A stretch of 64,000 nt of DNA from Candidatus Woesearchaeota archaeon (GTDB taxonomy: Archaea > Nanobdellota > Nanobdellia > SCGC-AAA011-G17 > JACPNG01), in the NCBI GenBank assembly GCA_016185605.1, contig JACPNG010000015.1, positions 7,103-71,102 on the forward strand, written 5' to 3'. Of the stretch, positions 13,600 through 64,000 are shown one piece after another. A program made the position numbers and the translations under genes. The notes beneath the pieces are model-generated. The model did no database searches. It saw only the letters and a list, made by a program, of their open reading frames with translations, and was not told the origin of the DNA. Positions within the stretch are counted from its first letter, which is position 1. Each line of letters starts with the position of its first letter.

Positions 13600-14679
13600 T
13601 TAGAATTGGACTCCAGGATTCTCCTTTTGATAGAATGATTTTAACATTGGATGTGGAAAAGGCAACATTGCTATAAATGGTTGTTTTGAGGTATATGCTT
13701 CCGCTTTCAGCCATTCTGAATATAAGAATGATCCTGGAAGATGATTATATATCCCCCCTTCATTTGGGTGTTTTTGTGAGACTAATACTCTTAAATAATC
13801 CCTATAATCAATTGGATTTTTTCTCTTAGACAATAATTGTTCTCTTACTATATTATCAACTTCAGCTTCTTTTAATCTTTGATCAAGAGTAGAAAGTGTT
13901 TTCTGAAGATATTCTCCTCTCCAATTTAAAGGCACAATCTCTGTCTTTGTGTCCCAATAAACTGGACGACCACCATCAACGCCGAGTTTAAATGGGTCAA
14001 AACCAGGGGGGATTGACTTCTTATCTTTGACTTGATAAATCTGAAAATGAAGTTGCTCTGGTTGTAGTTCTGTATTAATATATCCACTATTCCCAGATAA
14101 TGCAATGACATCGCTTAAATTGATAGATAGATCTTTCTTCTTAATTATTCTTTTAGATAAATGGACATATGAACTTCTATATGTGCCATCACCATACTCA
14201 TCTTCGTGTGACAACCTTATTTTTTTTCCCCCCTGATAACTTTCATGAACACTTCTTATAAATCCTCTATTTGTTGGGACAACTGGTGTCCCTGTCGGAA
14301 CTTCATAATCCACAGCTCCAAATCCTTTATTCCATGATCCTGATGCATGCTCATTAAAATCTATGTAACGACCCCTCCAGTAAAGGAGTGAAGGTCCCCT
14401 AATTAAGTCTTGAGTCATTAAATAAGATTCCCAATGTCTATCTGCTATATAATTTAAACTATCTTTTCCCCCACATCCATTAAGCCATAAAAATGTCCAT
14501 CCCGCTAAACCAGCGGCATATTTTAGAAATCTTCTTCTTTCAGTGGAAAATATAGGAAGGTTATTTTTAAATTTACTTAGCTCCGCAATGCCTCCTTCGA
14601 CCAATCTTGAGTCTCTAACTCTATTTTCAATTTCACCAGATACCCCAACTTGTTTTTTCATCTTTCTGAGAAGTCGCAT
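13600..14679 (-). CDS. M23-family (LytM/lysostaphin-like) metallopeptidase with Tat signal and lipobox
   Basis: 359 aa. ERRRFLKYAAGLAGW twin-arginine motif followed by WLNGCGG lipobox. M23 core: GAVDYEVPTGTPVVPTNRGFI...SSYVHLS...IALSGNSGYINTELQPEQLHFQI. Confidence 0.7.
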   Translation of the reverse strand: MRLLRKMKKQVGVSGEIENRVRDSRLVEGGIAELSKFKNNLPIFSTERRRFLKYAAGLAGWTFLWLNGCGGKDSLNYIADRHWESYLMTQDLIRGPSLLYWRGRYIDFNEHASGSWNKGFGAVDYEVPTGTPVVPTNRGFIRSVHESYQGGKKIRLSHEDEYGDGTYRSSYVHLSKRIIKKKDLSINLSDVIALSGNSGYINTELQPEQLHFQIYQVKDKKSIPPGFDPFKLGVDGGRPVYWDTKTEIVPLNWRGEYLQKTLSTLDQRLKEAEVDNIVREQLLSKRKNPIDYRDYLRVLVSQKHPNEGGIYNHLPGSFLYSEWLKAEAYTSKQPFIAMLPFPHPMLKSFYQKENPGVQF

Positions 14680-23800: not shown

Positions 23801-24347
23801 CTGTATCTTTATGACGCCAGCATTTTCCGTTATGGACTTGCTCATTTGCCAATACAGTATCGCATTTAGAGCACCAGTTAACACTTGCTTTTGATTTATA
23901 CACTAATCCATTCTCCAAGAATTTCAAAAAGAAATACTGGTTCCATTTATAGTATTCTGGAGTATGAGTCATTAATAACCTATCCCAGTCATAACTTAAT
24001 CCAAGCTCTTTTTGCTGCCTTATAAAATTTTTAATGGAATTCTCTGTGAATTTCTTTGGATGCTCTTTGGCTAGAATAGCTGCATTCTCTGCTGGAAGTC
24101 CAAATGAATCATATCCCATTGGATATAATACATTAAATCCCATCATCCTTTTAAATCTTGAATAAATATCTCCAATAGTATAGTTAAATGCATGACCCAT
24201 ATGCAGTCCAGAGCCAGAAGGATATGGAAACATCTCAAGAACATAGAATTTTTTCTTATTATTCTCTTTAACTTTGAATACTTTTTTCTGTTCCCATCTC
24301 TTCTGCCATTTCTTTTCTATTTTGCTGAAATCAACCATTATATTCAT
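20877..24347 (-). CDS. leuS: leucyl-tRNA synthetase (archaeal type) with two extra hydrolase-like domains inserted around the CP1 editing domain
   Basis: 1156 aa. HMGH (HIGH) and VMSKS (KMSKS) motifs, NWIGKSYG, TTRPDT and AVPAHDQRDFEFA editing motifs. About 195 extra aa with a GHSLG nucleophile elbow between WIGKS and TTRPDT (approx. nt 23058..23642). About 145 extra aa with a Nudix-box-like GGIEKNQTPEEAAKIEIEEETG after the editing core (approx. nt 22233..22670). Confidence 0.85.
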   Translation of the reverse strand: MNIMVDFSKIEKKWQKRWEQKKVFKVKENNKKKFYVLEMFPYPSGSGLHMGHAFNYTIGDIYSRFKRMMGFNVLYPMGYDSFGLPAENAAILAKEHPKKFTENSIKNFIRQQKELGLSYDWDRLLMTHTPEYYKWNQYFFLKFLENGLVYKSKASVNWCSKCDTVLANEQVHNGKCWRHKDTDVETKQLEQWFIKTTKYADELLKDIEKLQWSERIKIMQENWIGKSYGTEIEFEIFEDVKDKEFVFLHAYGDSSKDAFWLWLRKEIENKGGRVSFSPDLPNTNNPQYKEQSEFVLNNYNFNENSIVIGHSLGNILMMKLLSSGRIKIGKLIMVAPPLPTKERIISGKAFIDNKPRPALSNYCDWKFDFNKIKENVRQIFILVDKNDHIVPINQPMEIANKLEAQIITAMGNKTHYNGEKEEEVLNLLFRKWKIFTTRPDTLFGVTFMVISAQHPRLHEIVTKEQKKEVDNFLRKIKSTKKEDIEKLDKEGVFTGSYALHPLTNQKIPVYAGNFVIAEYGSGMVMAVPAHDQRDFEFAKKYNLKIVNVIEPVYSQDTEPGKIVDGLPFDHRDAIIAIVKHWSEEKYIGLKWKKVVWGTFITGGIEKNQTPEEAAKIEIEEETGYLNPKLIKDFGRVHGRFYHVPKKINRFAHAHVLYFELQNSKQKNISEAEKEIHEIKWLNLKELEKFLTPTTHKHALRMLNCTQEAYVDEGILTNSEKFNGLNSEEAKIKITKELENKKIGKLTVNYKLRDWLISRQRYWGTPIPIIYCDSCGIIPVQEKDLPVKLPDKVKFGKGNPLTTNKKFLNVKCPRCKKNAKRETDTMDTFFDSSWYFLRYCDNKNNKKPFDTMKTNYWMPVDQYIGGAEHACMHLIYARFFTKALRNMGYVNIDEPFIKLFNQGMLHGEDGFVMSKSRGNVVLPEAVSKEYGIDTARLFLISGAAPDKDMEWSSKGIDGSLRFVRRLIDYVSNVKMGKTSRKVESKLNKTIKDVTQDIEEFKYNLAIIKIRDLFDSLENEISKKDLEKFLKLIHPFCPHITEELWEKIGNKKFLSLEKWPEYDESKIDIKFEQAEKSFNNLVSDITNVINVMKEKQGKEFSKVYVYSLPNEVNNYNSKELSIKVNKDVIVYSVSDKNKYDPENKSKKAKPGKPAIFLE

Positions 24348-24414: not shown

Positions 24415-24501
24415 GGGCCTGTAACTCAGTTTGGATAGAGTGTCAGCCTTCTAAACAATGAAGTGAGCTGAAAGTCCGGGGTTCAAATCCTCGCAGGCCC
24501 G
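24415..24501 (+). tRNA. tRNA-Arg (anticodon UCU) with a short (about 12-nt) intron adjacent to the anticodon loop
   Basis: Acceptor GGGCCTG/CAGGCCC. D-arm ACTC-AGTTTGGATA-GAGT. Anticodon stem TCAGC/GCTGA with loop CTTCTAA plus inserted acaatgaagtga (CTTC/GAAG pairing suggests a relaxed BHB). T-arm CGGGG-TTCAAAT-CCTCG. No encoded CCA. Confidence 0.75.
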
Positions 24502-34594: not shown

Positions 34595-35539
34595 GGCTCT
34601 GGTGCAATCCCAATATTTAAGTAGTATAGAGGCATTAGCCCCCTTAATTTTATAAGGTTATTAACAAAAAGGAAGGTGATGCCCCTATGGCTAATGAAGA
34701 GTATGAAGACTACTTAAAGTTTATTGATTGTGCATTGGAGATTTCTAATAATATTCCCAGATACTTTTCCAAGTATTCCAATAAGATTTATTGCAATCAT
34801 CAGAAACTAGCAATATATATACTGATGCAGAAGATGAGAAGGACCTACAGGGGGATTATATCATGGTTAAAATCCAATAATGATGCATGCCTATATCTGG
34901 GAATATGCAAAATTCCAGTACATACAACCATAGTAAGGTTTGCCAAGAGAATCAGCAAATATCTTCATTTAATATTAGACATAAGAAAAGCGGATAGTGT
35001 TGCTGTTGATTCCACTGGATTTGAATTAGAATCAAAAAGCTATTACTACAGAAAAATGCAGTATTCTAAGGATAAACAGAGAGCAAAGAGGTTTATGAAG
35101 CTGAGTATAGTTGCTGATATAGATAAACAGCTTATACTTGATTATAGGATTAGAAGGGATTACAAGAGATGCAACACAGAGTTTAGAAGCATGATTAAGG
35201 ATATGGACATTAATTATGTCATAGCTGACAAGGGATATGACTCTTATGACAACAGGAATTTTGTGATAAGGAAGCTAAAAGCAATTCCTATTATCCCAGT
35301 AAGAAATTATACAAATTACTATGGCTATCTAAAGGGCAGAAGGATTAAAGGGGATAAATATCATCAGAGAAGCAAAATAGAAAGCATATTCTCCTCTATT
35401 AAGAGAAAATACGGCTCTGTAATTAGATCAAGAAGTTTTATATCACAAAAGACAGAGCTTATAGCTAAGCTCATAGCATACAATATAGACAGGAAGATTA
35501 GCTATTTACTATTTATTATCAGAGGGTTGCACCAGAACC
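34595..35539 (+). mobile_element. insertion sequence (IS4/IS5-type DDE transposase) with imperfect 16-17-bp terminal inverted repeats and 8-bp target-site duplication
   Basis: IRL GGCTCTGGTGCAATCCC (34595..34611). IRR GGGTTGCACCAGAACC (35524..35539), 15/17 identical with one indel. Flanking direct repeat TTGTTTGG at 34587..34594 and 35540..35547. Confidence 0.7.
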
Positions 35540-35559
35540 TTGTTTGGATATTTTCGTAA
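34687..35559 (+). CDS. DDE transposase (IS4/IS5 family)
   Basis: 290 aa. AVDSTGFE...VIADKGYDS...KIESIF DDE triad pattern. The ORF reads 20 nt past the IS right end. Confidence 0.75.
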   Translation: MANEEYEDYLKFIDCALEISNNIPRYFSKYSNKIYCNHQKLAIYILMQKMRRTYRGIISWLKSNNDACLYLGICKIPVHTTIVRFAKRISKYLHLILDIRKADSVAVDSTGFELESKSYYYRKMQYSKDKQRAKRFMKLSIVADIDKQLILDYRIRRDYKRCNTEFRSMIKDMDINYVIADKGYDSYDNRNFVIRKLKAIPIIPVRNYTNYYGYLKGRRIKGDKYHQRSKIESIFSSIKRKYGSVIRSRSFISQKTELIAKLIAYNIDRKISYLLFIIRGLHQNLVWIFS

Positions 35560-46763: not shown

Positions 46764-47861
46764 ATGAAATCGTGGCATATCTGGGATTTTCCGGATAATA
46801 TTTATATCTCTCTAAAAAGACAGGCTCATAAAGAATTTTTCAGAGAAATGTTTATAGAGTATGGGGGAAAAAGAGCGTATGCTAGATTCTTAGGTTTATC
46901 ACAAACCGCTGTAAAACAGCATTGGAGAGGTTACAGCAAAAAAGGCGGAAGATTATACACACAGTGTATACCTCTCTGGGTTCTAAAAAAATCTTGTAAA
47001 ACAAATAGACTTAAAAGAAAAATCGAGAATAATATAAATCTAATAAAAGGGTCAAATAAATCAAATCCAATAACAAACCCAAAATTGCCAATAGAAGAGA
47101 ATCCAGAATTGTATAGAATAACTGCACATATGATAGCAGATGGTAGTGCGCCTAGAAATAAGGTTCCTTATTATTCAAATACTTCAAAAGTTTTAAGGGA
47201 ACAATTTAAGAAGGATTTAAAGATATTTGGAAAGATGAGAGTTTATGACTCTAAATTAACAATTCCTATTGTTTACTTTCCAAAAATATTAACTGATATA
47301 TTGTCCCATATACTTAATGTGAGATTTTCTTTCCCAAATAGACTACCAAGTGAAACTTTCAAAGCTACAGAAGAATGTAAAAGAGCATTTTTACAGGCTT
47401 TATTTGATGACGAAGGTTATATATCAACCGGTCTATGCATAAGTATGTCTAATTTAAAGGTAATAAAACAGATAAAAAAATTATTAAAAGCTATAGAAGT
47501 AGAAACCAATAAAATAGGGATAAAAAGGCAAAAATATAGGAAGAATAATTTTATCATAAATGTGAAAAAAAAGCACTATAAAAGATTTGATGAAAAAGTT
47601 GGATTTTCCCATCCAGAGAAATCTAGAAATTTAAAATTTGCATTAAAGACTCTTAATAGAAAAATAAGAACAAGAGACCCATATATAATTAAAGAAGAAA
47701 TTTTAAAATATTTAAGAAGAAAACCTATGAAAACTTTAGAATTAGCTAATAACATACAACTTAGTTTAGGACATTGTTTAAGACACTTAAAAAGCATTGA
47801 AAAGATGGGTGATATAGAAAGAACTGGATTTAAAAATAAGATAATTTGGTATCTTCCCTAA
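46764..47861 (+). CDS. free-standing LAGLIDADG homing-endonuclease-like protein with flanking HTH domains (second copy of this architecture)
   Basis: 365 aa. LAGLIDADG-type motifs ITAHMIADGSA and LQALFDDEGYIS. C-terminal wHTH-like region. Confidence 0.65.
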   Translation: MKSWHIWDFPDNIYISLKRQAHKEFFREMFIEYGGKRAYARFLGLSQTAVKQHWRGYSKKGGRLYTQCIPLWVLKKSCKTNRLKRKIENNINLIKGSNKSNPITNPKLPIEENPELYRITAHMIADGSAPRNKVPYYSNTSKVLREQFKKDLKIFGKMRVYDSKLTIPIVYFPKILTDILSHILNVRFSFPNRLPSETFKATEECKRAFLQALFDDEGYISTGLCISMSNLKVIKQIKKLLKAIEVETNKIGIKRQKYRKNNFIINVKKKHYKRFDEKVGFSHPEKSRNLKFALKTLNRKIRTRDPYIIKEEILKYLRRKPMKTLELANNIQLSLGHCLRHLKSIEKMGDIERTGFKNKIIWYLP

Positions 47862-52739: not shown

Positions 52740-53561
52740 ATGCCAAAAAGATACTATAAAAACAGTGTAAGTTCTGCTGTAGATAAGGCAATTGAAAAAT
52801 ATGGAAAGGGTAGTGAAGAAAAATTATTTCAAAAACTAGATTATGATAAAATTAATAATCGAATAAAAAGATTAGTTCTACAAGGAAAAGATGAAGATGA
52901 TATAAGAAGAGATATATTACAAAATATCAATCAATATGCAACTAAATCAAAATCAAGAAGGTATCCAATAGCAATAGCGCAGTTCCTATTAAAAGAGAGA
53001 GATTTAAGTCCAAAGGGATATATTAGAACTCCCTTTAGAGCATTAAGAGAAGCGTTTGGTGTACAAAAAGAATACCCTTTAGAAGAACATTCAAAATCAT
53101 ATTCAGATATAGCCAGAGAGTTGAATAAACTGCCCGGTGGAGAAGAAGCAAAAGAAGCTAGTGAATATTTATCTAGGTCTGGTCTATTCATGAAAGTATT
53201 AAAACAAATGCGTGGAGATAAATTAGTAAGTGATAGTACATTTCATAAAGTAGATCGTAAGATTGAAAAAGGGGCTAAAAGAAAAGCAAAAGAATTGTCA
53301 GATATAATTGAAGAAGTAGCAGCTGTTATATTATTAGCAATCGCAACATTCTCATTAGTAAACTCAATAGTTGATAATCCTTCTGTAACAGGATATTCTA
53401 TATTGGGAATATCACAAGCTACAACCTCAACATTAATATTAAATTTATTAGCATTCATATTTGTTCTATTATTAGTCTATCCTTCTGGAGATATAATGTT
53501 TCCATTAAAAGCTGCAGAAGTAAAAAATTCAAGAAAAACTATTAGAAAAAAGCGTAAATAA
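52740..53561 (+). CDS. hypothetical protein with C-terminal TM segments
   Basis: 273 aa. Confidence 0.4.
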   Translation: MPKRYYKNSVSSAVDKAIEKYGKGSEEKLFQKLDYDKINNRIKRLVLQGKDEDDIRRDILQNINQYATKSKSRRYPIAIAQFLLKERDLSPKGYIRTPFRALREAFGVQKEYPLEEHSKSYSDIARELNKLPGGEEAKEASEYLSRSGLFMKVLKQMRGDKLVSDSTFHKVDRKIEKGAKRKAKELSDIIEEVAAVILLAIATFSLVNSIVDNPSVTGYSILGISQATTSTLILNLLAFIFVLLLVYPSGDIMFPLKAAEVKNSRKTIRKKRK

Positions 53562-54353
53562 AATTCTATAATAGCTTAAGATTACCAATAATATTATTGT
53601 AATTAATATATTGATGAATGAAAATGCATTGAAATTTCCTATGTAAAAGACAAAATTATTCATAAAAGCTACCATAAACAAGATGAAAATAACCAAATAT
53701 CCCAAGTATAAAGGAAATAGATAATGTATTTTTTTTATTGCTATGCTTATCCCTTTCCTTAATGTTCTTAATAAGCTATTATTATTTAATAAAGAATAAA
53801 ATATTAATAAGAAGTAGAATAAGATTATGGGAATTAGTATAATTAAATATAATTGAGTATTAAATTCAAATTGTCCGCCGTAATAAGGGACTATATTAGT
53901 AAACATGGATAAAAACTGAAACGCTATTAATGTTAATATGACAAAGAATGGCAGACTTATAACCAAAAATTTAATGAAGAATTTGTAATCCAATATATTT
54001 TTCATTTTGTCTTCAAAGATTATTTTATAGTTTAACCCCTGTAATAATGCCCATAAGATAAATATTACAAAAGGGATTATAAAATATCCAAATATTAGTG
54101 ATTCTCTTACTATTGAGTTTATACTATTTAAAACTAAAGTAGTTTGGTCTAGATTAGCTACATCAGTTGATTGCTGCAGTAAGCTTTGCATTTCATTTAA
54201 CTTTGGAATATACTGCTGGATTAACTGAAGATAATTTTGAACCTTGTTTCTTGAGTAGTTCAAAAATAAGAATAATAAAATAAAAAACAATCCATCTATC
54301 AAAATAAAGTAATAAAACTTTTTCTTGAATAGATTAAATGATTTCTTCAGCAT
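53529..54353 (-). CDS. polytopic membrane protein, hypothetical
   Basis: 274 aa, 6 TM segments. Confidence 0.4.
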   Translation of the reverse strand: MLKKSFNLFKKKFYYFILIDGLFFILLFLFLNYSRNKVQNYLQLIQQYIPKLNEMQSLLQQSTDVANLDQTTLVLNSINSIVRESLIFGYFIIPFVIFILWALLQGLNYKIIFEDKMKNILDYKFFIKFLVISLPFFVILTLIAFQFLSMFTNIVPYYGGQFEFNTQLYLIILIPIILFYFLLIFYSLLNNNSLLRTLRKGISIAIKKIHYLFPLYLGYLVIFILFMVAFMNNFVFYIGNFNAFSFINILITIILLVILSYYRILFTLFSNSFS

Positions 54354-54391: not shown

Positions 54392-54805
54392 TTAAACTTC
54401 TATTTCTAAAGTCATTTTGTCATAACTGACTTCTGGAACCAGTTTTTTTCTGACTTCCCTTACATTAGTCACTTCAACGAATCCTAATTCCTTTAGAAAT
54501 TTTATATCTGTATTCACATTTTCCGGGGTTCTGCCGACTAATTTAGCAAGTTCGTACATAGATCTTGGTTTCTTATGCTTGATAATCCTAAGCAGCTCTA
54601 ATCTTTTTGGCGTTAAAAACTTCCTAAGCTGGTCTAAAGACTGAAAACTAATGGTATCTTCTTTAAATCTTTTAGATCTTCCCATATCTATCTCTTTCAA
54701 CTCAGACTTTATCTTTTTCTTAAATTCTTCCATATCCTCAATATATAACTTTAATTCTTTCGCTTTAATCATTTTCTCCTCCATTTGATTTTTCAAATTC
54801 TTCAA
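54392..54805 (-). CDS. winged-HTH transcriptional regulator
   Basis: 137 aa. LELLRIIKHKKPRSMYELAKLVGRTPENVNTDIKFLKELGFV is a typical wHTH. Confidence 0.5.
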   Translation of the reverse strand: MKNLKNQMEEKMIKAKELKLYIEDMEEFKKKIKSELKEIDMGRSKRFKEDTISFQSLDQLRKFLTPKRLELLRIIKHKKPRSMYELAKLVGRTPENVNTDIKFLKELGFVEVTNVREVRKKLVPEVSYDKMTLEIEV

Positions 54806-55064
54806 CTAATTTAAAAAACTGAACTGCTGTCTTCTCCAGACTTTCAAATTTATATTGCTCCTTTTTATTCTGATGATGCTTATGATGCCCTTCATTGTTA
54901 AAATTGTCAAATGCAATTGTTCTTTTGTTCTTATGCACAAATGTAAATGAGTATTTTACCCCTTCCTGATAAAATTTTGATTTTGGGGTTTTCCAGGCCA
55001 CTATTTCAATAAGGTTGTTCTTTTCGGTGATTATCCTCTTTTTCGGGATTACAGCTTTTGCCAT
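54765..55064 (-). CDS. small hypothetical protein co-transcribed with the wHTH regulator
   Basis: 99-aa ORF. Overlaps the regulator gene by 41 nt. Confidence 0.35.
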   Translation of the reverse strand: MAKAVIPKKRIITEKNNLIEIVAWKTPKSKFYQEGVKYSFTFVHKNKRTIAFDNFNNEGHHKHHQNKKEQYKFESLEKTAVQFFKLVEEFEKSNGGEND

Positions 55065-55323: not shown

Positions 55324-58300
55324 TTAAGTAATTTTTATCTCTAATTTTTCATTTATTTTATCTACATATTTATTTGATACTGGAATATTTTTACTTCTTA
55401 AATCATCTAATGCTGTAGGACCCATATTATAAGCTATCAAAGCTAATCTTAAATCATTCCTATATCTATTTTTAAGATAATATAGATAACATGTGCCTGC
55501 ATTTATATTCTGTTGAGGATCTTTGTATACATCATTAAATTCTAGATCCCCACAATGTTTAGAACTAGCTTTAGTTTTCATATCAGTTATTGTGATTGGT
55601 CTCAGTTGCATTAACCCACAATCCTCTCCATTACAAACCTCTGGTTTCCAACTAGATTCTTCAGTTATTATTGCTATTATTAAACTCTTATCAATTCCAT
55701 ATGTATTACTAGCTTGTTCAATTATTGGAAGATATTTTTCAATCTTCGAACGATAAGATACAAGTACTGATTCTTTTACCCCCTCTATTGTTGTTAATTT
55801 TTCATCTGGCTTTTCTGAAGATATTAGATTAGATGTTTGACTAAGTTTTATTATATCTCCCCTACTTAAAGATAGACAAGAATTAGGAATTGAGACTGGA
55901 TTGGTTGGAATATAACATTTTTTATCTTCATTATAATTATAAACCCCTTCATTAATTGTTTGTAAAGGTACATCCAAAGCAACATATGCCTTAGTTCTAG
56001 CTATTATTGGTTGTTTTTTATAAAAGATGGGTAACCATTTATTCTCTAAGTCTCTTAAATAATTATTTCCAATATCAATTATGGTTGTTATTTCTATCTC
56101 TTTAGTTTCTATATTACATCTAGCATATCCAAGATTACATATGGGTATAAGTTTTATTAATTCCTTTAACTCCATGCCTTCAAAGTCTTTAGTAAAACAT
56201 CTTTTTCTTACATCATCCCAATCACATCTATTAAAACCACATCTATCTAATGGTTCTAATAAATCTAATTGTCTTTCTTCATAATCACCAAGACAAGCTA
56301 ATTTTCTATTTTCATCACCTTGAACCTTATTATAATCTTCACACGATTTTATATCATCACACGAATTACATAAATTACTAATTAAACCACCAAATCCATA
56401 ATAATAACATTTTTGATTATTACCATCTATCTTCTTACATTCATTATAATTACAATATTTAAAATCGTAATATGTACCACCACATTGATTACATTGTAAT
56501 TGAGTTTGTTGTAGTGTAGTAGTTTCAGATGATGATTTTGTAGATGTTACATCTTTCCGTTTTTCTTGTTGTATATCATCTACATAATTTGGAGGTCTAT
56601 AATCTTCAACAGTAGAAGTTTCATCTATTTTTGTCGGTTCTTTCAATATTTTAGAAAATTCATCTTGTTTTATTTCTATCCATTCTCCCTGGCTGTATTT
56701 ATAATATCTTAATTCATCATATTCAGTAGTAAGTATAGAAGTTGCAATTATATTTTCTGTATTAATGGAGTTCTGTAAAATTTTTATATTTTCATTTAAT
56801 CCTGTTACATCTGTAGTTAAAGTTTCTCCTTCTTTACCACATATCTCGCCTTTAGAAACATCTTTATAAGTCAATCCACAAAAACAAGATTTTTCACAAG
56901 TTTCCGGGCATTTAACTTGATTAGTATCATAAACTCCTTCCCCATAATCATAAGCAAATAATCCAGGACAACTTTCTGTACTAGTTTTTGTTTGGCCTCC
57001 AGTCTGTGTTACTAATCCAGATTTCCTCCTAAACTTACCCCATTCTTCATATGTTTCTCCTAATCTAAAAGTGGCCTTGGCTGCTATATTTGGAATTAGA
57101 GTATTGCTTGCTTTTTTGTACATCTCAACAAGGCTTCTAAATCCCTCTTCAGTTGGATTATTTAGCACATCATCCAATAAATAGCCAGCATCAGTCAATA
57201 TTCCATCAGCCTCCTGCTGCGATAATATATTAAGATTTATTATTCCTTCTTCAGCTAATTTAGTCTGTAGATTCTTTAATTCTACTTGAGTTGTATTTCT
57301 AAGCTCTACATCCTTTATCAGCTTGCTTAGGGCTGGCCTGTATAGCCAGCAGGTTCCTAAATCTCTTCCCTTATCATCTATTCCGCAGCTTCCTACTTCT
57401 ACCCATGTCTGTGTATTTACCCCGATTCCAGGATTAAATCCAGAGCATCTCCTTATTATTCCAGTTTCCACTAATCCAGTTGAGAAGCTTCCTACACCAG
57501 CTACCAGAGGATTAATACTCCCTCCAAATTTTCCGCCACCAGTATAATCTAATGTAGATAATCTTCCTGTCTGTGGAACACATTCCTCAGCTGATTTAAT
57601 CTGTTTTTTCGCTTCGCTGGCTGTATAAATATCGCTTAATTTATTCAATCCAAAATCAGTTGTTACTTTGCCAAATCCGCATTCATTTATTCTAGTTGTT
57701 TTTCCTTTTATCTCAACACATACCTCATTATAGCCAGCTAACTGGACAAAATCATCATTCTGCTGGTTAAATCTTCCAGCATCCAATCTTTTATTCCTTA
57801 TAATAAAGAAGAACGGCAAGTAGCTTTGTCCTAGTTCATTAACTCCCTTTAGATAAACACTATAAGTTACTGGCTCATTAGCCCCTGCATAAATATGATG
57901 AAATACACTATATTGGTTTTCTTTGGCCCTTCCTACCTCTGAATAAGGCAATGTATCAAAAAATGCTATAAACTGAGGAGGGCTTACTGGCCTTGTTATC
58001 TGGTCAAAGAATCCCTCTCCAGGCAGTTTTCCTCCAATAAAAGACTTGCAAATTTCCGTTCCAATCTCATCTAAACTCCCTCCAGAATAAGCTGCAAACA
58101 CATTCTTTGCATAATCCTGGGTAAAGAATTTTAATGAATTTATCGAAGTGTCTATTGAATTTTTAAAGTTTGCATATTCTCCCCCGCCTTTCCCAGTATC
58201 AAATACTTTCTCGCTTAAAAAGTCAAATATTCCTCCTTTAATATTAAATATTGCTACCCCCTCTCTCCATAAAATATCACAAACATAAAGGTTTCTTACT

Positions 58301-61300
58301 CTATCACATATCCCAACAGATTCTCCCTTGACTTTTTGGACATTCAGACATTCACTATATCCCTGCAGCATTGATTTTATATTTTGAAGTCCAGCTAATA
58401 ATCCTGTAATGCATACTGGCACAGCAACTTCTCCTCCAGCTAGAACAGAATTTGGAGCGCATAATGCTAGACTTCCTATAATTCCAGTCTGGGCAACATT
58501 AGCAACCTGCCATTTTCCATTTAAATTGCATCTTGAGCTTGGACACATTACTGGATCACAAGCATTAAACAATAATCTACAGTCTTCTGGAGACATAAAA
58601 TCAACGCAGCTTTTTCCTATTTCTGTTACTTGAACATTTTCCTTAGAATAACCGCACTTTAGACGAGCTCCTGTCTCAAGATTACTTCTGCTTAATTCTT
58701 TGTTGCAGGTGTTAACTTTTCCCATCAAATTACCCAGTTCTTTGCAATCTTGTTCACTAACAACATCCTGTCTTTTGAATACATCCCCTCTATAATTACA
58801 GATTTGTCTGACAGAATTTAAATCCCCCATGCTTACTCCAGTTCCTAAAGGTCCATTTGGTAATGTTCTCTTAAATATAGTTACATCTTTAGCAGCTCCT
58901 GAGGCTGTATATTCTAATTGCGCATATAACAAAGAGCTAATAGTAATAGAATCAACTTTTCCCTTGTTTCTTCCCTCATTTAATATTGATAATTTATTAA
59001 TGGGCTTGACTTGCTGTGTTCTTTGATCTCCAAATACAACCGGGTCACAGCCTGTTGGTCTTTTAACAAAATATTTTGCTGTTTTTGATTTATCATCGAT
59101 ATTTATATCTGTATTAAGTCTTTGGTTGTCATCGTTACAACTACTATCTTTATATAATATATATGAATTATATCCATCTTGAAGTTTACGTATATCTGTA
59201 GTTGGATCTTTTACAACTGAATATTTACTTAAGATAGTTGGACCAAATCCAATAGACTTAACAAATTGTGTATTCCTAATATAATCAAAAGCATTATCTA
59301 TACATTTCTTAACTTGATTGCATTTCCGCCCTATTTCATTTCTTAATCCTTCATTTATAGTTATATCTCCAGAGAATTCTCTATTTTTGTCTCCATAGAA
59401 ATATTCGGCCAGTTGTTGTCCTTTTAATCTATTATTATATGTAGATAAGATTTGGGCTTGATTTGCCGAATATTCTGTTTCATCTTTAACTATAATTCCT
59501 ACTTTATTTAAATCATCCCTAATTTCGCTGAACTTTTTTTTAGAGATATCTCTTGTTTTATCATCTATATAAGCTAATCTTATGTTTTTTTCAGAATCTA
59601 GATATTTATCATAATACCTATTTGGATCATAGCCATACATTCCTTTAGTAAAGCAGTAATCCTTAATAGTATCCTTACTCTTGTCAGATGTAAATTGAAT
59701 ATTTATTGGTAGATCACACGTGGCTCCACCTTGTATAGAATCAACTATATTTTGTGCAGCCTCTATATCATTGCCATACCTGTCAGAATTTTTAATTACA
59801 AAATTATCGAATGTCCCTACATTTTCTCCTCTCGCCTTTGCCTCTCTATATTCATCTACCCATTTATCCCTTATTTTTTCTCTGGCTATTCCCTCATTGC
59901 TGAACACTCCTTGTATTAAATTCTTTGACCATAATGCTCCAAAAGTAACATAGCAGAAATTAATCCAGAATTTGTGGATTTTTTCCATATTTTTTATTAA
60001 TGAATCAACTTTGTCTATTAATTTCTTTGTTTTGTTTATTTCATCATCTAGATTGCTGCTGAATATAGATGGCCTTATTGCCCTTTTTTCAATGTCTATA
60101 TGCAGATTAAAATTAGATTCGCTGAATGCATTTTCTGAGTCAGGAATTATAGATATATAGACTTCTTTTTTTGCTTCTACGCTTTTGACTCTAACTTTAA
60201 TGAACTTATCCTTGTCTTTTCCAGTTGAAACTGATCTCAAATTATTTGTTAATGTTATTCTTTCAAACGTTGTTGCTCTTTGCTGGGAAGTTGATAAAGG
60301 ATTTTCATAATCTCTTCTGATAACAACAGAATTTCTGCTTATTGATTCTACCCTCCATAAATATCCTGGATCATAAATATCATAAAGTGCTTCTCCTGTT
60401 GTTAGCCTTTTATCTATCCCGTTTATTTCTAATACTGCTTTTGGCTTGTCTTGATCAGAAGCTTTGTTAATCTCCAATAGTTGAACTCTTATTATCTCTC
60501 CATTATCCTCTAAATCCTGGGCTTTAGACTTAAAGTTTAATGATGATCTTATATTATTGATTCTATTTTCTATGTCTTGTTTTTCTTTGGAAGAAAATCT
60601 AGGATCATTCAGCAACTCCTCATAACTTCTTAGTGCATTTTCATCATTCCCCAAAAAATAATTAATTAATGCTATTCTTTCCTTGGCTTTGACAGCAAAA
60701 ACTTGGTTATCATCATCCCTCTCATCTGGATAATTCCTTATCAATTCAGTATAAGTCTGTGTTGCTAAATTGAATAAATCAGCATAACCTTGCGGTTCTG
60801 TTTTAGATTCTTTTGTTGAATATCTTGCTGCAGAATCAGTATTAATAAAATCAACAATCTCTGTCATTACAGCATTAATCTCCCTGCTTTTTTCAGGATT
60901 TGAATATGATTGTTCTCTACTTAATCTTTCTAAATCGGAAAATATTCTTTTCTGTAAAAAGTTAGTTGCTTCTTGTTTAGTAGACTCTCCTACATTACTT
61001 TGTATAATTAATCCTTTTAATTGTGCAACCATATCTTTTATAGATTCCAGATATAATGCGGTTTCTGGACTATTTTTGTCTAATCCTTCATATTTCAATT
61101 TTATTGCTTCAAAATTTATTTCTTCAGGTCTTGATGGAATGCAGCATATTTGATTATTCAATTCTAATTCAGTAGCTCCTTCAAATGTGCTACATCCAAC
61201 ACTTTCTCCTTCACCAATTTCCTTCTTACCAGAAGGGCATATTAGTGAGTCTTCACAAGTTCCACCAGCATTTTTACAAGCATCTTGTCCTGTTAAAATC

Positions 61301-62556
61301 CTAGTCTTACAACTATTTTCTTTATATTCACATAACTTATCAGAATTGCATTCACTTTTATCTTTTATTATCTCACATGTTTTTCTTGATTGACACTTAT
61401 CACCTACTTGGAAACAACTATTTTCCTTAGAGCATTGTGCTGTAGTAAGGCTTTCACAATCTACTTTAGTTATTGGAAATTTTACAGTCTTTCCATTTAA
61501 TCTGTTTCTTAATACTAATTCCCTGTCCTTGTCATTATTGCTGAAAGTTATATCTCTAACAATCCAGTTTGAGCCTGGATATAATGTGCTTCCTTTGGTT
61601 AATATTTTTTTAGAAAATTCATTTCCCCTATACACTTCAACTTTAGCTTTGTCGCTTAAATCTCTTATGCTGTTTACTCTTATTCTAAAGCTGTCAAATA
61701 AATTTCCAAATCTAGAATAGCCTCCTCTTAAAGTAAATCCCCTTGTTGCTCCTTGTCTTATTTCTATTGGCGCACTTAATGGATTTAGATTATCATCATA
61801 GACAACAAACACAGCGCTATTATCTTTTATTTCTTGTGCTCTTATATAACCGCCAAAGAAATTATGCTGCTCTTTTTCCTCCAGCCATTTTAATTCATCT
61901 TGTTCTATTAAAATATCCTCGCTAGGCCCATATCCTAATCCTTGAGAAACATCAAAATTAATCCTTGTTTCTATTTCAATGTCAATCTCACTAGGAACAT
62001 CAGCTTCCTTGGGAATCCTTCTTATTGGAATAACTAAATATCCTAGATTATTGTAGGTTGGATCAATCCTATATTGAGAGGATCCATATGCCCCTGGCTT
62101 TAATATCCCCCCAGAAGGTGGAAAATATCTTATGGCTCCAATATTTACTTTTTTTCCATCTGGCTTTGTTGTAACATTCAATATTCTAGGAGAGGTAATT
62201 CCTCTTATCCTTGGTATTGTAATTGAGGGATTAGAAGGGAGTCCAACTAATAATGCCTTTATATTAACATCATTTTGCTCTAATAAAGCAGATCTAACTT
62301 GTCTAGGCTCATAATAATCTGCGCTTACTACAATATCCTCCCCAAGATTTCTCTCCTCTCCAGCCCCTAAGGTTATTCTTTCTCCAGATAAGTCATATCC
62401 TAATCTTAATCTGGGATCTCCTAGATTTCTGTCATATCTTGGATCTAGATAATCACTTAATGTTCTTGGATTTAATGTCTGGGCATTTACCAAAGTAAAT
62501 GAAATATTGCTGAATATCAATAATGCTATAATAAATACAGCTAATTGCTTTTTCAT
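55324..62556 (-). CDS. giant secreted protein (2410 aa) with Cys-rich central regions and a C-terminal lytic transglycosylase (SLT, lysozyme-like) domain
   Basis: Signal peptide MKKQLAVFIIALLIFSNISFTLVNAQT. C-terminal SLIIAIITEESSWKPEVCNGEDCGLMQL...AGTCYLYYL...ALIAYNMGP is the SLT family-1 motif set. 4-nt overlap with the upstream gene. Confidence 0.8.
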   Translation of the reverse strand: MKKQLAVFIIALLIFSNISFTLVNAQTLNPRTLSDYLDPRYDRNLGDPRLRLGYDLSGERITLGAGEERNLGEDIVVSADYYEPRQVRSALLEQNDVNIKALLVGLPSNPSITIPRIRGITSPRILNVTTKPDGKKVNIGAIRYFPPSGGILKPGAYGSSQYRIDPTYNNLGYLVIPIRRIPKEADVPSEIDIEIETRINFDVSQGLGYGPSEDILIEQDELKWLEEKEQHNFFGGYIRAQEIKDNSAVFVVYDDNLNPLSAPIEIRQGATRGFTLRGGYSRFGNLFDSFRIRVNSIRDLSDKAKVEVYRGNEFSKKILTKGSTLYPGSNWIVRDITFSNNDKDRELVLRNRLNGKTVKFPITKVDCESLTTAQCSKENSCFQVGDKCQSRKTCEIIKDKSECNSDKLCEYKENSCKTRILTGQDACKNAGGTCEDSLICPSGKKEIGEGESVGCSTFEGATELELNNQICCIPSRPEEINFEAIKLKYEGLDKNSPETALYLESIKDMVAQLKGLIIQSNVGESTKQEATNFLQKRIFSDLERLSREQSYSNPEKSREINAVMTEIVDFINTDSAARYSTKESKTEPQGYADLFNLATQTYTELIRNYPDERDDDNQVFAVKAKERIALINYFLGNDENALRSYEELLNDPRFSSKEKQDIENRINNIRSSLNFKSKAQDLEDNGEIIRVQLLEINKASDQDKPKAVLEINGIDKRLTTGEALYDIYDPGYLWRVESISRNSVVIRRDYENPLSTSQQRATTFERITLTNNLRSVSTGKDKDKFIKVRVKSVEAKKEVYISIIPDSENAFSESNFNLHIDIEKRAIRPSIFSSNLDDEINKTKKLIDKVDSLIKNMEKIHKFWINFCYVTFGALWSKNLIQGVFSNEGIAREKIRDKWVDEYREAKARGENVGTFDNFVIKNSDRYGNDIEAAQNIVDSIQGGATCDLPINIQFTSDKSKDTIKDYCFTKGMYGYDPNRYYDKYLDSEKNIRLAYIDDKTRDISKKKFSEIRDDLNKVGIIVKDETEYSANQAQILSTYNNRLKGQQLAEYFYGDKNREFSGDITINEGLRNEIGRKCNQVKKCIDNAFDYIRNTQFVKSIGFGPTILSKYSVVKDPTTDIRKLQDGYNSYILYKDSSCNDDNQRLNTDINIDDKSKTAKYFVKRPTGCDPVVFGDQRTQQVKPINKLSILNEGRNKGKVDSITISSLLYAQLEYTASGAAKDVTIFKRTLPNGPLGTGVSMGDLNSVRQICNYRGDVFKRQDVVSEQDCKELGNLMGKVNTCNKELSRSNLETGARLKCGYSKENVQVTEIGKSCVDFMSPEDCRLLFNACDPVMCPSSRCNLNGKWQVANVAQTGIIGSLALCAPNSVLAGGEVAVPVCITGLLAGLQNIKSMLQGYSECLNVQKVKGESVGICDRVRNLYVCDILWREGVAIFNIKGGIFDFLSEKVFDTGKGGGEYANFKNSIDTSINSLKFFTQDYAKNVFAAYSGGSLDEIGTEICKSFIGGKLPGEGFFDQITRPVSPPQFIAFFDTLPYSEVGRAKENQYSVFHHIYAGANEPVTYSVYLKGVNELGQSYLPFFFIIRNKRLDAGRFNQQNDDFVQLAGYNEVCVEIKGKTTRINECGFGKVTTDFGLNKLSDIYTASEAKKQIKSAEECVPQTGRLSTLDYTGGGKFGGSINPLVAGVGSFSTGLVETGIIRRCSGFNPGIGVNTQTWVEVGSCGIDDKGRDLGTCWLYRPALSKLIKDVELRNTTQVELKNLQTKLAEEGIINLNILSQQEADGILTDAGYLLDDVLNNPTEEGFRSLVEMYKKASNTLIPNIAAKATFRLGETYEEWGKFRRKSGLVTQTGGQTKTSTESCPGLFAYDYGEGVYDTNQVKCPETCEKSCFCGLTYKDVSKGEICGKEGETLTTDVTGLNENIKILQNSINTENIIATSILTTEYDELRYYKYSQGEWIEIKQDEFSKILKEPTKIDETSTVEDYRPPNYVDDIQQEKRKDVTSTKSSSETTTLQQTQLQCNQCGGTYYDFKYCNYNECKKIDGNNQKCYYYGFGGLISNLCNSCDDIKSCEDYNKVQGDENRKLACLGDYEERQLDLLEPLDRCGFNRCDWDDVRKRCFTKDFEGMELKELIKLIPICNLGYARCNIETKEIEITTIIDIGNNYLRDLENKWLPIFYKKQPIIARTKAYVALDVPLQTINEGVYNYNEDKKCYIPTNPVSIPNSCLSLSRGDIIKLSQTSNLISSEKPDEKLTTIEGVKESVLVSYRSKIEKYLPIIEQASNTYGIDKSLIIAIITEESSWKPEVCNGEDCGLMQLRPITITDMKTKASSKHCGDLEFNDVYKDPQQNINAGTCYLYYLKNRYRNDLRLALIAYNMGPTALDDLRSKNIPVSNKYVDKINEKLEIKIT

Positions 62557-64000
62557 TTTACAAACTCCGGCTCCTTTACACTAGTAGTTTCAATCCTTGT
62601 TAAAACATTATTTAGCTCGTCAACATTGGTTGGAATCCCAAATCCATTTAAGTAAAATATAATATTATTTGCATCAGCTAAATCTACCCTGTTAACATTC
62701 CAGCTAAATTTAGCCCCCCCGGTAAACACTTGAGTAATATCAATTCCCTCTATTGTAGTTTTTTCGCATTTCTTTTCTGTCAATCCAATTATTCCCAATA
62801 CTCCTTCTCTAGGAGCATCAATGCATGTTTCCAGTTCTTTTCCGTTTATTCTTATTGGATTTTTTGAATTAAATATTATATTTGCATCAATATCATAGCT
62901 TCCGTCTATTAGCTTAACCTTATTATTGTCTGGATAAGCAATAGTCTCATAATAATTTGACTGCTCATTTCTAAAGTTTATTATAATCTGTTCATTCTCA
63001 AATAATATTCTATCAATATTATTTTCTGTTATTTTAACCTCAAATGTTTTTTCATATACTGGCTCCATTATCACAGAAACAACGCTTTCCTGATTAGTTG
63101 ATAGTTCCACTTCAGCTGTATCAAATCCCTCTTTTTCAACTATTAATTGTCCATTAATGCACTGTGGGAATTTATTTTCTAAAAATACCTCTCCATTAAG
63201 ATTATTAGTCTCCCCAATATCACATATTGTATTGGAGCATTTATATGATATTTTTGCGTCTTTTATCTGGCCTAATGAATTATCCGGCTTAATTCCTAAT
63301 GCATAAACCTTAATTTTAGTCAATGGATTCTCGCATATAATTGGATTAGTATCATAACTCTGATCGATTTCTATTTTATTTTCTCTCGGCTGGTTATTTT
63401 CTATTATGACTTGAGTGGCAAACTGAAATGTTGAATCATCTTTTGATAAAGAGACTAAAACAGGATATCTTAAATCATAAATAAAATGATAGCTGTTCAG
63501 GCAGAAGAACTGCGTCAAAGATCTTCCAATAACTCCCTTGTTAAATGAATCCCCTTGTAGTATGTTATCTCCAGGAGTAATATCTATTAATAACGGCCAA
63601 TTAGGGGAATATTCAAAATTTACATTAATGTCCTTGGCATCTTCCAATAAGTTTAATATCCTGTATTTATCATCAACATCAGAATCCTTTGTATCCTTAA
63701 CTCTGTATGAATTTATATTGACATCCAATATCTGTTTCAGATTACCAATAACCTCATCTTTTTTCCATCTTTTAGGAGTACATTCAAAATCCACCTCAGT
63801 AGAAGGAATCTCTTCATAAACATTAATGAAATCCAATGTTTTTTCCTCCAAGAAAAATTCATTATTCTCTTTATTTATTATTTTTATGGCTGATTCATAC
63901 AATTCGCCTAAAGAAGATTTGACATTCTGCTGAAAGTTTATTAGCTTAAAATTTTTTCCTTTGAGATTTATTTCCAGAGGATACTCTACATCTATATTAA
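62553..64000 (-). CDS. hypothetical protein, N-terminus outside the window, co-transcribed with the giant SLT protein
   Basis: Track gives 62553..63902 from a TTG codon. The frame stays open to the window end (NIDVEYPLEINLKGKNFKLINFQQNVKSSLGELYES...), so the gene probably starts beyond 64000. Confidence 0.55.
   Translation of the reverse strand, partial: NIDVEYPLEINLKGKNFKLINFQQNVKSSLGELYESAIKIINKENNEFFLEEKTLDFINVYEEIPSTEVDFECTPKRWKKDEVIGNLKQILDVNINSYRVKDTKDSDVDDKYRILNLLEDAKDINVNFEYSPNWPLLIDITPGDNILQGDSFNKGVIGRSLTQFFCLNSYHFIYDLRYPVLVSLSKDDSTFQFATQVIIENNQPRENKIEIDQSYDTNPIICENPLTKIKVYALGIKPDNSLGQIKDAKISYKCSNTICDIGETNNLNGEVFLENKFPQCINGQLIVEKEGFDTAEVELSTNQESVVSVIMEPVYEKTFEVKITENNIDRILFENEQIIINFRNEQSNYYETIAYPDNNKVKLIDGSYDIDANIIFNSKNPIRINGKELETCIDAPREGVLGIIGLTEKKCEKTTIEGIDITQVFTGGAKFSWNVNRVDLADANNIIFYLNGFGIPTNVDELNNVLTRIETTSVKEPEFVK

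What the first reader, a model, noticed from the sequence alone, without database searches (positions are those of the whole stretch)
55324..64000. Operon encoding a 2410-aa secreted giant protein with a C-terminal lytic-transglycosylase (SLT) domain plus an upstream partner gene
Archaea lack murein, yet this signal-peptide-bearing giant protein ends in a clear family-1 SLT motif set (EESSWKP...GLMQL...AYNMGP). Its Cys-rich modules look extracellular. Together with the Tat-lipoprotein M23 peptidase at 13600..14679, this points to peptidoglycan-directed activity. Possible roles are attack on or attachment to a bacterial partner or prey, or remodelling of an unusual envelope. The upstream gene (at least 480 aa, start beyond the window) overlaps by 4 nt and is therefore co-translated.
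Basis: partly seen in the sequence, partly recalled or inferred. Interest (0 to 1): 0.7.

Follow-up and report, generated by a model that had tools for sequence, protein, structure and literature searches.

The report
Giant archaeal surface protein with murein-cutting tip
A tiny DPANN archaeon (Woesearchaeota) encodes a 2410-residue secreted protein ending in a bacterial-type cell-wall-cutting enzyme; it belongs to a large, already reported family of such giants, which sit in a conserved operon and probably let these wall-less archaea latch onto or breach bacteria.

Summary
A 2410-aa ORF (55324..62556, minus strand) has an N-terminal signal peptide and a C-terminal SLT/GH23 domain (Pfam E=1e-21) with intact catalytic motifs. 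An upstream gene overlaps it by 4 nt. The window is archaeal, from a Woesearchaeota MAG.

The interpretation, murein-directed activity against bacteria, is supported, but it is already published for this protein family (Castelle 2021 fam00969; Vigneron 2022).

What the tools add:
- The SLT is one of many interchangeable murein-hydrolase modules: SLT, M23, M15, Amidase_2, 3D/DPBB, PF11860 muramidase, SGNH, GH3.
- These modules are either fused to the C-terminus of a conserved ~1800-aa scaffold or encoded by the next gene.
- The scaffold family is large: 1074 clusters at 50% identity and at least 574 species genomes. All 80 loci that were listed come from Woese-/Pace-/Nanoarchaeota.
- The scaffold gene is preceded in 60 of 61 testable loci by a ~660-aa protein with an archaeal class III (prepilin-type) signal peptide.
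- It is usually followed by a 6-8-TM membrane protein.
- The scaffold and the partner match no Pfam family or PDB sequence, and the folds that could be modelled (scaffold only) are only generic Ig-like sandwiches.

Best reading: a cell-surface apparatus for attaching to or breaching bacterial envelopes. This is unproven.

The parts
62553..64000 (-). C-terminal 481 aa of the partner gene. Full length is 657 aa; the start lies beyond the window and is seen in L001:248-2221. The protein is Cys-rich and extracellular, with an N-terminal class III (prepilin-type) signal MKSKKRENKKAQ|ITAFVILGLIIVL.
   Evidence: The N-terminal motif M-x-K-[KR]-G-Q-V-T-x-F-x-I-x-G plus a hydrophobic stretch of roughly 20 residues is present in nearly all of about 55 orthologues. 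No Pfam, NCBIfam, PHROG or PDB match. Adjacent to the giant in 60/61 loci.
55324..62556 (-). Giant secreted protein, 2410 aa. Identical to an NCBI entry named 'transglycosylase SLT domain-containing protein [Candidatus Woesearchaeota archaeon]'.
62482..62556 (-). Signal peptide, aa 1-25, with predicted cleavage VNA|QT.
   Evidence: Sequence reading. Conserved in the family consensus. The only strong hydrophobic segment in the protein.
61477..62415 (-). Conserved N-terminal domain, aa 48-360: tandem Ig-like beta-sandwiches.
59737..60789 (-). Conserved middle region, aa 590-940: TPR-like helices plus a strongly conserved block at about aa 800-900.
   Evidence: Conservation profile. Weak TPR hits in homologues.
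57277..58659 (-). Most conserved core, aa 1300-1760. It starts with C-x-D-F-M-S-P-x-D-C...C-D-P-V-x-C-P-x-S-R-C and has 16 invariant Cys. It contains a Gly-rich hydrophobic stretch (aa 1354-1393, nt 58378-58497), an Ig-like sandwich and a small beta domain.
   Evidence: (48% mean column identity). AF2 pLDDT 49, with only the sandwich confident. Foldseek finds only generic sandwiches. No PDB sequence match. 1074 cluster representatives match the profile.
55777..57009 (-). Variable Cys-rich linker/tail, aa 1850-2260. It is lineage-specific: the 55%-identical homologue P0002 diverges from aa 1988.
55402..55722 (-). SLT / GH23 family-1 lytic transglycosylase domain, aa 2279-2385. Catalytic Glu E2300; GLMQL at 2314; AYNMGP at 2375.
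54392..55064 (-). TumE toxin (54765-55064) plus an HVO_A0114-type wHTH (54392-54805). This pair is inserted between the giant and the membrane gene. It is not part of the cassette in the relatives examined.
   Evidence: In L002, L003, L004 and others the membrane gene directly follows the giant.
53529..54353 (-). Conserved third gene of the cassette: a 274-aa polytopic membrane protein (6-8 hydrophobic segments in its orthologues).
   Evidence: BLAST E=2e-29 and 1e-17 to the genes directly downstream of the giants in L003 and L002. Immediately downstream in 35/68 loci and found further downstream by HMM in several more.
13600..14679 (-). Separate M23 peptidase with a twin-arginine signal and a lipobox-like LNGC. 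It is a second murein-type hydrolase in the window and is not linked to the cassette.

Best explanation
The three genes form a chromosomal cassette specific to Woesearchaeota, Pacearchaeota and Nanoarchaeota. The genes are a ~660-aa partner with a prepilin-type signal, the giant, and a 6-8-TM membrane protein. I propose that the cassette builds a cell-surface apparatus directed at bacterial envelopes.

Shown:
- The giant has a Sec-type signal and no membrane anchor of its own.
- Its first ~1800 residues are a conserved scaffold of Ig-like N-terminal domains, TPR-like helices and a Cys-rich core.
- Its C-terminus is a swappable enzymatic tip. In this window the tip is a family-1 lytic transglycosylase with intact catalytic motifs.

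Inferred:
- The partner is cleaved by a prepilin peptidase. It stays in the membrane, or enters a pilus-like fibre, through its hydrophobic N-terminal helix, and it holds the giant at the surface.
- The scaffold acts as spacer and adhesin.
- The SLT tip cleaves MurNAc-GlcNAc bonds in a bacterial sacculus locally. This would let the archaeon attach to, or reach the membrane of, a bacterial host or prey.
- The polytopic membrane protein helps with assembly or anchoring.
For: SLT domain and motifs. Archaeal context. Collinear giant homologues with a conserved scaffold and variable tails. Size of the family: 1074 representatives and at least 574 species genomes, with all 80 listed loci named Woese-, Pace- or Nanoarchaeota. 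Tail census of 64 species representatives: SLT 12, GDSL 5, M23 3, M15_4 3, 3D 3, SH3_3 3, Amidase_2 1, DPBB 1, PG_binding_1 1. Other tails: muramidase + GDSL, SLT + M23, GH3. Murein hydrolases in the separate gene just downstream: Amidase_2 x3, SLT x3, M23, Hydrolase_2 among 16. This is a fusion/fission pattern that ties murein hydrolysis to the cassette. Partner adjacency 60/61 and class III signal consensus. Conserved chromosomal neighbourhood (LSM, S8e, TFIIB) in distant genomes. No relatives in 2.9 M viral contigs. SLT-bearing members are scattered on the core tree, and the window's closest relatives lack an SLT. The SLT is most similar among phage proteins to virion-associated lysins, which are penetration enzymes fused to large structural proteins.
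Against: Nothing has been tested experimentally, and no host is known. More than half of the tails have no recognisable domain, so murein attack may not be the scaffold's core function. Anchoring by the partner is inferred only from gene order and its signal peptide. A prepilin peptidase or pilus ATPase was not looked for in this genome, and none is listed near the cassette in three annotated loci. The hydrophobic stretch in the core is only moderately hydrophobic (Kyte-Doolittle maximum 1.75) and may simply be buried. The N-terminal signal was read by eye.
Confidence: 0.55

Rival explanations
1. The giant is a freely released bacteriolytic or scavenging enzyme. It is shed into the medium to lyse competitors or to digest murein from dead bacteria for amino sugars and amino acids. 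The scaffold serves only for substrate binding or stability.
For: DPANN have minimal biosynthesis. Secreted archaeal peptidoglycan hydrolases that kill bacteria have been demonstrated experimentally in other archaea (PMC12352652). Peptidoglycan necromass use has been proposed for Pacearchaeota (PMC11537232). The giant has a signal peptide and no anchor.
Against: An 1800-aa scaffold conserved across more than 1000 clusters is excessive for a soluble enzyme. It is strictly coupled to a partner with a prepilin-type signal (60/61) and to a membrane protein. Many members have no identifiable hydrolase.
Confidence: 0.2
2. The scaffold is a general envelope or structural component of these archaea, for example an S-layer-like or stalk protein. 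The murein hydrolase modules are accessory decorations for defence against neighbouring bacteria.
For: Each of the 80 best loci comes from a differently named genome assembly, with a conserved chromosomal position. The scaffold is conserved even where no hydrolase is seen. The N-terminal domains and part of the core model as Ig-like sandwiches.
Against: No similarity to known S-layer proteins was found in Pfam, NCBIfam or PDB. Murein hydrolases were recruited repeatedly, both as fusions and as adjacent genes, which suggests that hydrolysis is integral rather than incidental.
Confidence: 0.12
3. The enzyme remodels a murein-like or pseudomurein wall made by the archaeon itself.
For: SLT enzymes are housekeeping autolysins in bacteria. 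The whole genome could not be inspected here.
Against: No wall-synthesis genes were found among the roughly 40 window ORFs scanned with Pfam. Family tails include M15_4, Amidase_2 and PG_binding_1, which target murein-specific bonds. The literature treats these lineages as lacking murein (PMC8204110).
Confidence: 0.03
4. The cassette is a remnant of an integrated virus: a tape-measure or tail-lysin gene with neighbours.
For: The SLT domain hits PHROG 'lytic tail protein', 'internal virion protein' and the SPbeta YomI tape-measure protein at 31-34% identity. A TA pair lies next to it.
Against: Only the SLT domain matches phage proteins. The scaffold and partner have no PHROG hit. The core has no relative in 2.9 million viral contigs. 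The cassette lies in the same housekeeping neighbourhood in distant genomes.
Confidence: 0.03

Closest known systems
[quoted passage not shown] 2021, PMC8204110; also Vigneron et al. 2022, PMC9723730, which cites an earlier report for Woesearchaeota AR20)
   Same: Same lineage, same size class (up to ~3000 aa), same SLT/GH23 domain and same proposed role of binding or degrading bacterial cell walls. The window protein is almost certainly a member.
   Different: As far as the passages I read show, those papers describe the family by its SLT domain only. They do not mention the prepilin-signal partner, the downstream membrane protein, or that SLT is one of many alternative hydrolase modules on a scaffold that often lacks it.
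Phage virion-associated peptidoglycan hydrolases fused to large structural proteins (e.g. SPbeta YomI tape-measure protein; N4-like internal virion transglycosylase)
   Same: A very large structural protein carries a murein hydrolase that would act locally to pass a bacterial wall. The SLT domains share 31-34% identity. One homologue tail (P0007) combines SLT and M23.
   Different: The scaffold is unrelated in sequence, is absent from viral contigs, and is encoded in a conserved cellular locus. There is no tail or capsid context.
Specialised lytic transglycosylases of bacterial envelope-spanning machines (e.g. T3SS IagB, flagellar assembly lytic transglycosylase)
   Same: A family-1 SLT domain is dedicated to opening murein for a surface apparatus. 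There are weak NCBIfam hits to the flagellar assembly LT and to IagB.
   Different: Those enzymes are small, act on the producer's own wall, and belong to bacteria.
Archaeal class III signal peptide (type IV prepilin-like) proteins
   Same: The partner's N-terminus has basic residues, then G/A, then Q at the predicted +1 position, then a hydrophobic stretch of roughly 20 residues. From my own knowledge, this matches the prepilin pattern, including the Gln at +1 typical of EppA-type substrates.
   Different: The partner's ~630-aa Cys-rich globular part is far larger than a structural pilin and matches no pilin family. Processing and filament assembly are untested.
Polymorphic toxin / modular effector architectures (conserved trunk with variable C-terminal enzymatic tip)
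   Same: A conserved N-terminal trunk carries highly variable C-terminal modules that are exchanged between close relatives.
   Different: The tips are wall hydrolases rather than cytotoxic nucleases or deaminases. The downstream gene is a conserved membrane protein, not a variable cognate immunity gene.

Membership tests
Family-1 lytic transglycosylase (SLT, PF01464 / GH23) | Profile match above the curated threshold | tested here: met
   77.2 bits against a 21.3-bit cutoff, E=9.8e-22, aa 2279-2385
Family-1 lytic transglycosylase (SLT, PF01464 / GH23) | Catalytic Glu in an E-S motif, plus the G-L-M-Q and A-Y-N-x-G motifs | tested here: met
   EESSW at 2299, GLMQL at 2314, AYNMGP at 2375. E2300 aligns with the Glu of the E-S-S motif of MltC.
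Family-1 lytic transglycosylase (SLT, PF01464 / GH23) | Lytic transglycosylase activity on murein (1,6-anhydroMurNAc product) | not testable with these tools
   Needs the recombinant domain and a muropeptide analysis.
Castelle 2021 fam00969 giant SLT proteins | Woese-/Pacearchaeota origin, very large extracellular protein, SLT domain | tested here: met
   NCBI name of the identical protein, 2410 aa with a signal peptide, SLT domain.
Castelle 2021 fam00969 giant SLT proteins | Membership in the authors' actual protein cluster | not tested
   The cluster's member list was not consulted.
Archaeal class III signal peptide (prepilin-like) protein - applies to the partner | Short basic N-region, G/A at -1, then a hydrophobic stretch of roughly 20 residues | tested here: met
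   KKAQ|ITAFVILGLIIVL in this genome. Consensus M-x-K-R-G-Q-V-T-x-F-x-I-x-G-I-x-I-V over 44 orthologues.
Archaeal class III signal peptide (prepilin-like) protein - applies to the partner | Cleavage by a prepilin peptidase and assembly into a filament or surface complex | not testable with these tools
   A peptidase gene was not searched for in the genome. No pilus genes are listed near the cassette in three annotated loci.
Phage tape-measure / virion-associated lysin | Encoded in a viral genome among tail or virion genes | tested here: not met
   No relative of the core in viral contigs. No PHROG hit outside the SLT domain. Housekeeping neighbours.
Polymorphic toxin system | Variable C-terminal toxin followed by a cognate, co-varying immunity gene | tested here: not met
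   The tails vary. The next gene is a conserved polytopic membrane protein or another hydrolase, not a tail-specific small immunity gene.
SPEARE giant proteins of Nanohaloarchaeota | Serine protease, adhesion and restriction-endonuclease domains (definition recalled from memory) | tested here: not met
   No such Pfam domains in the giant.

The most novel reading that the evidence does not exclude
The cassette encodes a previously uncharacterised host-contact organelle, common in sequenced Woese-/Pacearchaeota genomes. A pilin-like subunit would present a ~2000-aa Cys-rich shaft whose exchangeable tip is matched to the host's envelope chemistry: murein glycan, peptide, amide or O-acetyl bonds. 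The invariant Gly-rich hydrophobic hairpin in the shaft's core would insert into the bacterial membrane, acting like a fusion loop or pore and opening a conduit for nutrient uptake. If so, much of a large DPANN radiation would be episymbionts or predators of bacteria rather than of archaea, and tail type would predict host type.
Probability: 0.25. Interest if true: 0.8.

Novelty: already known. Interest (0 to 1): 0.45.

Why it matters
Whether the very abundant Woese-/Pacearchaeota live on bacteria is an open question, because no representative has been cultured with a host. These giant proteins are the main genomic clue.

Three new observations turn a single-domain annotation into a defined system:
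- Murein hydrolysis is tied to a conserved three-gene cassette, by fusion or by adjacency.
- The cassette includes a partner with a prepilin-type signal.
- The hydrolase tips are swapped between close relatives.

This makes the question experimentally tractable. The parts can be expressed, antibodies against the conserved core could be used for imaging, and tail types could be correlated with co-occurring bacteria.

Tried and rejected
The core-only profile added 15 mostly fragmentary sequences.
- AF2 of the core with 12 sequences gave pLDDT 49. Only an Ig-like sandwich was usable, and Foldseek against PDB returned generic ApaG/GH2-type sandwiches.
- Profile searches of PDB sequences with the core, the N-domain and the partner found nothing.
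- Pfam, NCBIfam and PHROGs gave nothing for the partner or the membrane protein.
- My local SLT HMM over-called, with hits at odd positions (18 hits among 76 giants locally against 12 of 64 tails by Pfam, on overlapping sets). The count of about 15 Fitch changes is therefore only indicative.
- Viral origin was considered and rejected.
- Own-wall remodelling was considered and is unlikely, but a genome-wide search for mur genes was not possible with the tools.
- The literature search for a cultured Woesearchaeales-bacterium pair found none.
Full report

Yes. The minus-strand ORF 55324..62556 encodes 2410 aa from an ATG. Its N-terminus (MKKQLAVFIIALLIFSNISFTLVNA|QT) reads as a Sec signal peptide. 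It is the only strongly hydrophobic segment in the protein.

Pfam places an SLT domain (PF01464) at aa 2279-2385 with E=9.8e-22. NCBIfam's best hits are MltC, a flagellar assembly lytic transglycosylase, Slt70-type, EmtA and MltF models, all restricted to the same ~110 residues. Against solved structures the domain aligns with MltC, Slt70 and EmtA. The second Glu of EESSW (E2300) sits on the Glu of the E-S-S motif of MltC, and GLMQL and AYNMGP follow.

The upstream frame is open to the window edge, at least 481 aa. Its stop overlaps the giant's start as ATGA. A Logan contig that carries the identical giant shows the upstream gene is 657 aa.

The window is archaeal, at about 30% GC: TFIIB, Nre, diphthamide synthase, S8e, L1 and L10. 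The identical protein is named in NCBI as coming from a Candidatus Woesearchaeota archaeon. The M23 gene at 13600..14679 is also real and has an RRRFLK Tat motif followed by LNGC.

**2. What is it? The giant is a member of a large family**

Twelve close-to-distant full-length homologues (1855-2593 aa) are collinear with the window protein. They share four things:
- the signal peptide;
- an N-terminal domain (aa ~50-360);
- a TPR-like middle region, with a strongly conserved block at aa 800-900;
- a very conserved Cys-rich core (aa 1300-1760). It has 48% mean column identity and 16 invariant Cys, and opens with C-x-D-F-M-S-P-x-D-C ... C-D-P-V-x-C-P-x-S-R-C.

Conservation collapses after about aa 1850.

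An exhaustive HMMER search with the core profile found 1074 cluster representatives at 50% identity, 931 of them below 1e-30. Most of the 150 listed are 1.6-3.8 kaa proteins with the core at about residues 1100-1750; the rest are shorter sequences that look like fragments. In GTDB species-representative genomes at least 574 loci encode a relative. All 80 loci kept come from differently named MAGs of Woesearchaeota, Pacearchaeota, Nanoarchaeota or 'Nanoarchaeia', or from MAGs named only 'archaeon'. None of 2.9 million viral contigs encodes a relative.

**3. The SLT is one interchangeable tip among many**

Named homologues:

| Homologue | Modules found |
|---|---|
| P0007 | SLT + M23 at the C-terminus |
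| P0008 | PF11860 N-acetylmuramidase + GDSL/SGNH esterase at the C-terminus |
| P0012 | SLT at the C-terminus |
| P0163 | GH3 N-terminal domain at the C-terminus |
| P0134 | weak NlpC/P60 |
| P0148 | ankyrin repeats |
| P0006 | metallophosphoesterase inserted near the N-terminus |

I ran a Pfam census of the tails of 64 species-representative giants. Counts can overlap within a protein.

| Pfam family | Tails with a match |
|---|---|
| SLT | 12 |
| GDSL-type | 5 |
| M23 | 3 |
| Peptidase_M15_4 | 3 |
| 3D | 3 |
| SH3_3 | 3 |
| Amidase_2 | 1 |
| DPBB_1 | 1 |
| PG_binding_1 | 1 |
| Metallophos | 1 |

Apart from a few minor hits, the identified modules are murein hydrolases or murein-binding domains. 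Together they cover the glycan, amide, peptide and possibly O-acetyl bonds of bacterial peptidoglycan. More than half of the tails have no recognisable domain.

In 16 loci an extra gene lies between the giant and the membrane gene. It encodes Amidase_2 (3), SLT (3), M23 (1), Hydrolase_2 (1) or DUF2272 (1). Murein hydrolases are therefore either fused to the giant or encoded next to it. That fusion/fission pattern argues for a functional link.

Tails are exchanged on short evolutionary distances:
- the 55%-identical P0002 diverges from the window protein after aa 1988;
- P0003 (44% identical) ends before the SLT;
- the window's nearest species-level relatives (L004, L005) have short tails without an SLT;
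- SLT-bearing members are scattered over a crude core tree.

**4. The operon**

In 60 of 61 loci with enough upstream sequence, a 620-750-aa orthologue of the upstream gene abuts or overlaps the giant on the same strand. Nearly every orthologue starts M-x-K-[KR]-G-Q-[VA]-T-x-[FY]-x-I-x-G, followed by a hydrophobic stretch of roughly 20 residues. Here the start is KKAQ|ITAFVILGLIIVL. From my own knowledge, this is the pattern of an archaeal class III (type IV prepilin-like) signal peptide, including the Gln at +1 typical of EppA-type substrates. The remaining ~630 residues are Cys-rich and have no Pfam, NCBIfam, PHROG or PDB relative.

A 220-310-aa protein with 6-8 hydrophobic segments follows the giant immediately in 35 of 68 loci. 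The HMM finds it further downstream in several more. In the window this protein is 53529..54353. It is separated from the giant by an inserted TumE / HVO_A0114-wHTH pair, which is absent at this position in the relatives examined.

The cassette lies in the same housekeeping neighbourhood (LSM, S8e, TFIIB) in the window and in distant genomes. It is therefore a vertically inherited cellular locus.

**5. Structure attempts**

AF2 on the core (12 sequences) gave pLDDT 49. The Cys-rich helical half, which contains the conserved Gly-rich hydrophobic stretch aa 1354-1393, was unresolved. The confident part is an Ig-like sandwich with only generic Foldseek matches.

**6. Mechanism**

Shown:
- a secreted giant with an intact family-1 lytic transglycosylase at its tip;
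- a conserved scaffold;
- obligate linkage to a partner with a prepilin-type signal;
- recurrent recruitment of murein hydrolases.

Inferred: the partner anchors or presents the giant on the archaeal surface. The scaffold spans the distance to a bacterial cell. The tip cuts murein locally, allowing attachment or access to the bacterial membrane. The polytopic protein assists assembly.

The closest working analogy is the phage virion-associated lysin. The SLT domain is 31-34% identical to those in N4-like internal virion proteins and the SPbeta YomI tape-measure protein. Only the enzymatic domain is related.

The rivals cannot be excluded without experiments. The first two fit the evidence less well; the last two are unlikely on the evidence:
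- a freely secreted bacteriolysin or scavenging enzyme;
- a structural envelope protein with defensive decorations;
- remodelling of the archaeon's own wall;
- a viral remnant.

**7. Comparison with the literature, and novelty**

Castelle et al. [quoted passage not shown] They propose that these proteins bind and degrade bacterial walls, and they cite Rinke 2013 and Castelle 2015 for earlier sightings. Vigneron et al. 2022 (PMC9723730) report 'large lytic murein transglycosylase' genes in Woesearchaeota MAGs and argue for predation on bacteria. Later papers repeat this. Strock et al. 2025 (PMC12352652) show experimentally that other archaeal peptidoglycan hydrolases kill bacteria.

I did not find the following in the passages I read: the partner with a prepilin-type signal, the conserved three-gene cassette, the fact that many family members lack an SLT, and the polymorphism and fusion/fission of murein-hydrolase modules.

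**8. Verdict**

Interest is moderate (0.45). The biology is unresolved and important for understanding DPANN lifestyles, and the cassette architecture offers concrete experiments.

Noticed in passing
window 20877-24347 (-): The leucyl-tRNA synthetase is 1156 aa. Besides the usual catalytic, editing and anticodon-binding domains, it carries a Ser_hydrolase-like segment (aa 248-418) and a NUDIX domain (aa 578-696). This is an unusual insertion or fusion in an aaRS.
   Followed up: no
window 54392-55064 (-): A TumE toxin gene and an overlapping HVO_A0114-type winged-helix gene (a putative toxin-antitoxin pair) lie between the giant and its usual downstream membrane gene. Relatives have no such insertion.
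   Followed up: partly
window 24415-24501 (+): Rfam finds an 87-nt tRNA that ARAGORN missed. It may be an intron-containing archaeal tRNA.
   Followed up: no
window 8028-12283 (-): Two overlapping large ORFs of 746 aa and 672 aa. The second has three MopE-like putative metal-binding motifs; the first has no Pfam hit. They may be another pair of surface proteins.
   Followed up: no
window 1997-3010 (-) and 46764-47861 (+): Two proteins combine a LAGLIDADG_3 domain with HTH domains. A similar LAGLIDADG gene sits near the cassette in L002.
   Followed up: no
window 34687-35559 (+): A DDE_Tnp_1 transposase, i.e. an insertion sequence, in this small genome.
   Followed up: no
L001 1-251 (just beyond the window's right edge): Upstream of the partner gene lie the 3' end of a tRNA-like sequence (GGTTCAAATCC...) and a 41-aa ORF whose stop overlaps the partner's start. 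Its function is unknown.
   Followed up: no
window 18403-20172 (+): The alanyl-tRNA synthetase ORF is only 589 aa and ends right after the tRNA_SAD domain. From memory, that is shorter than typical AlaRS.
   Followed up: no
L003 4595-12202 (P0006): One giant homologue has a calcineurin-like metallophosphoesterase domain inserted between the N-terminal domain and the TPR region (aa 399-602) rather than at the tail. One tail in the census also carries Metallophos. This is a non-murein enzymatic module with no known target.
   Followed up: no
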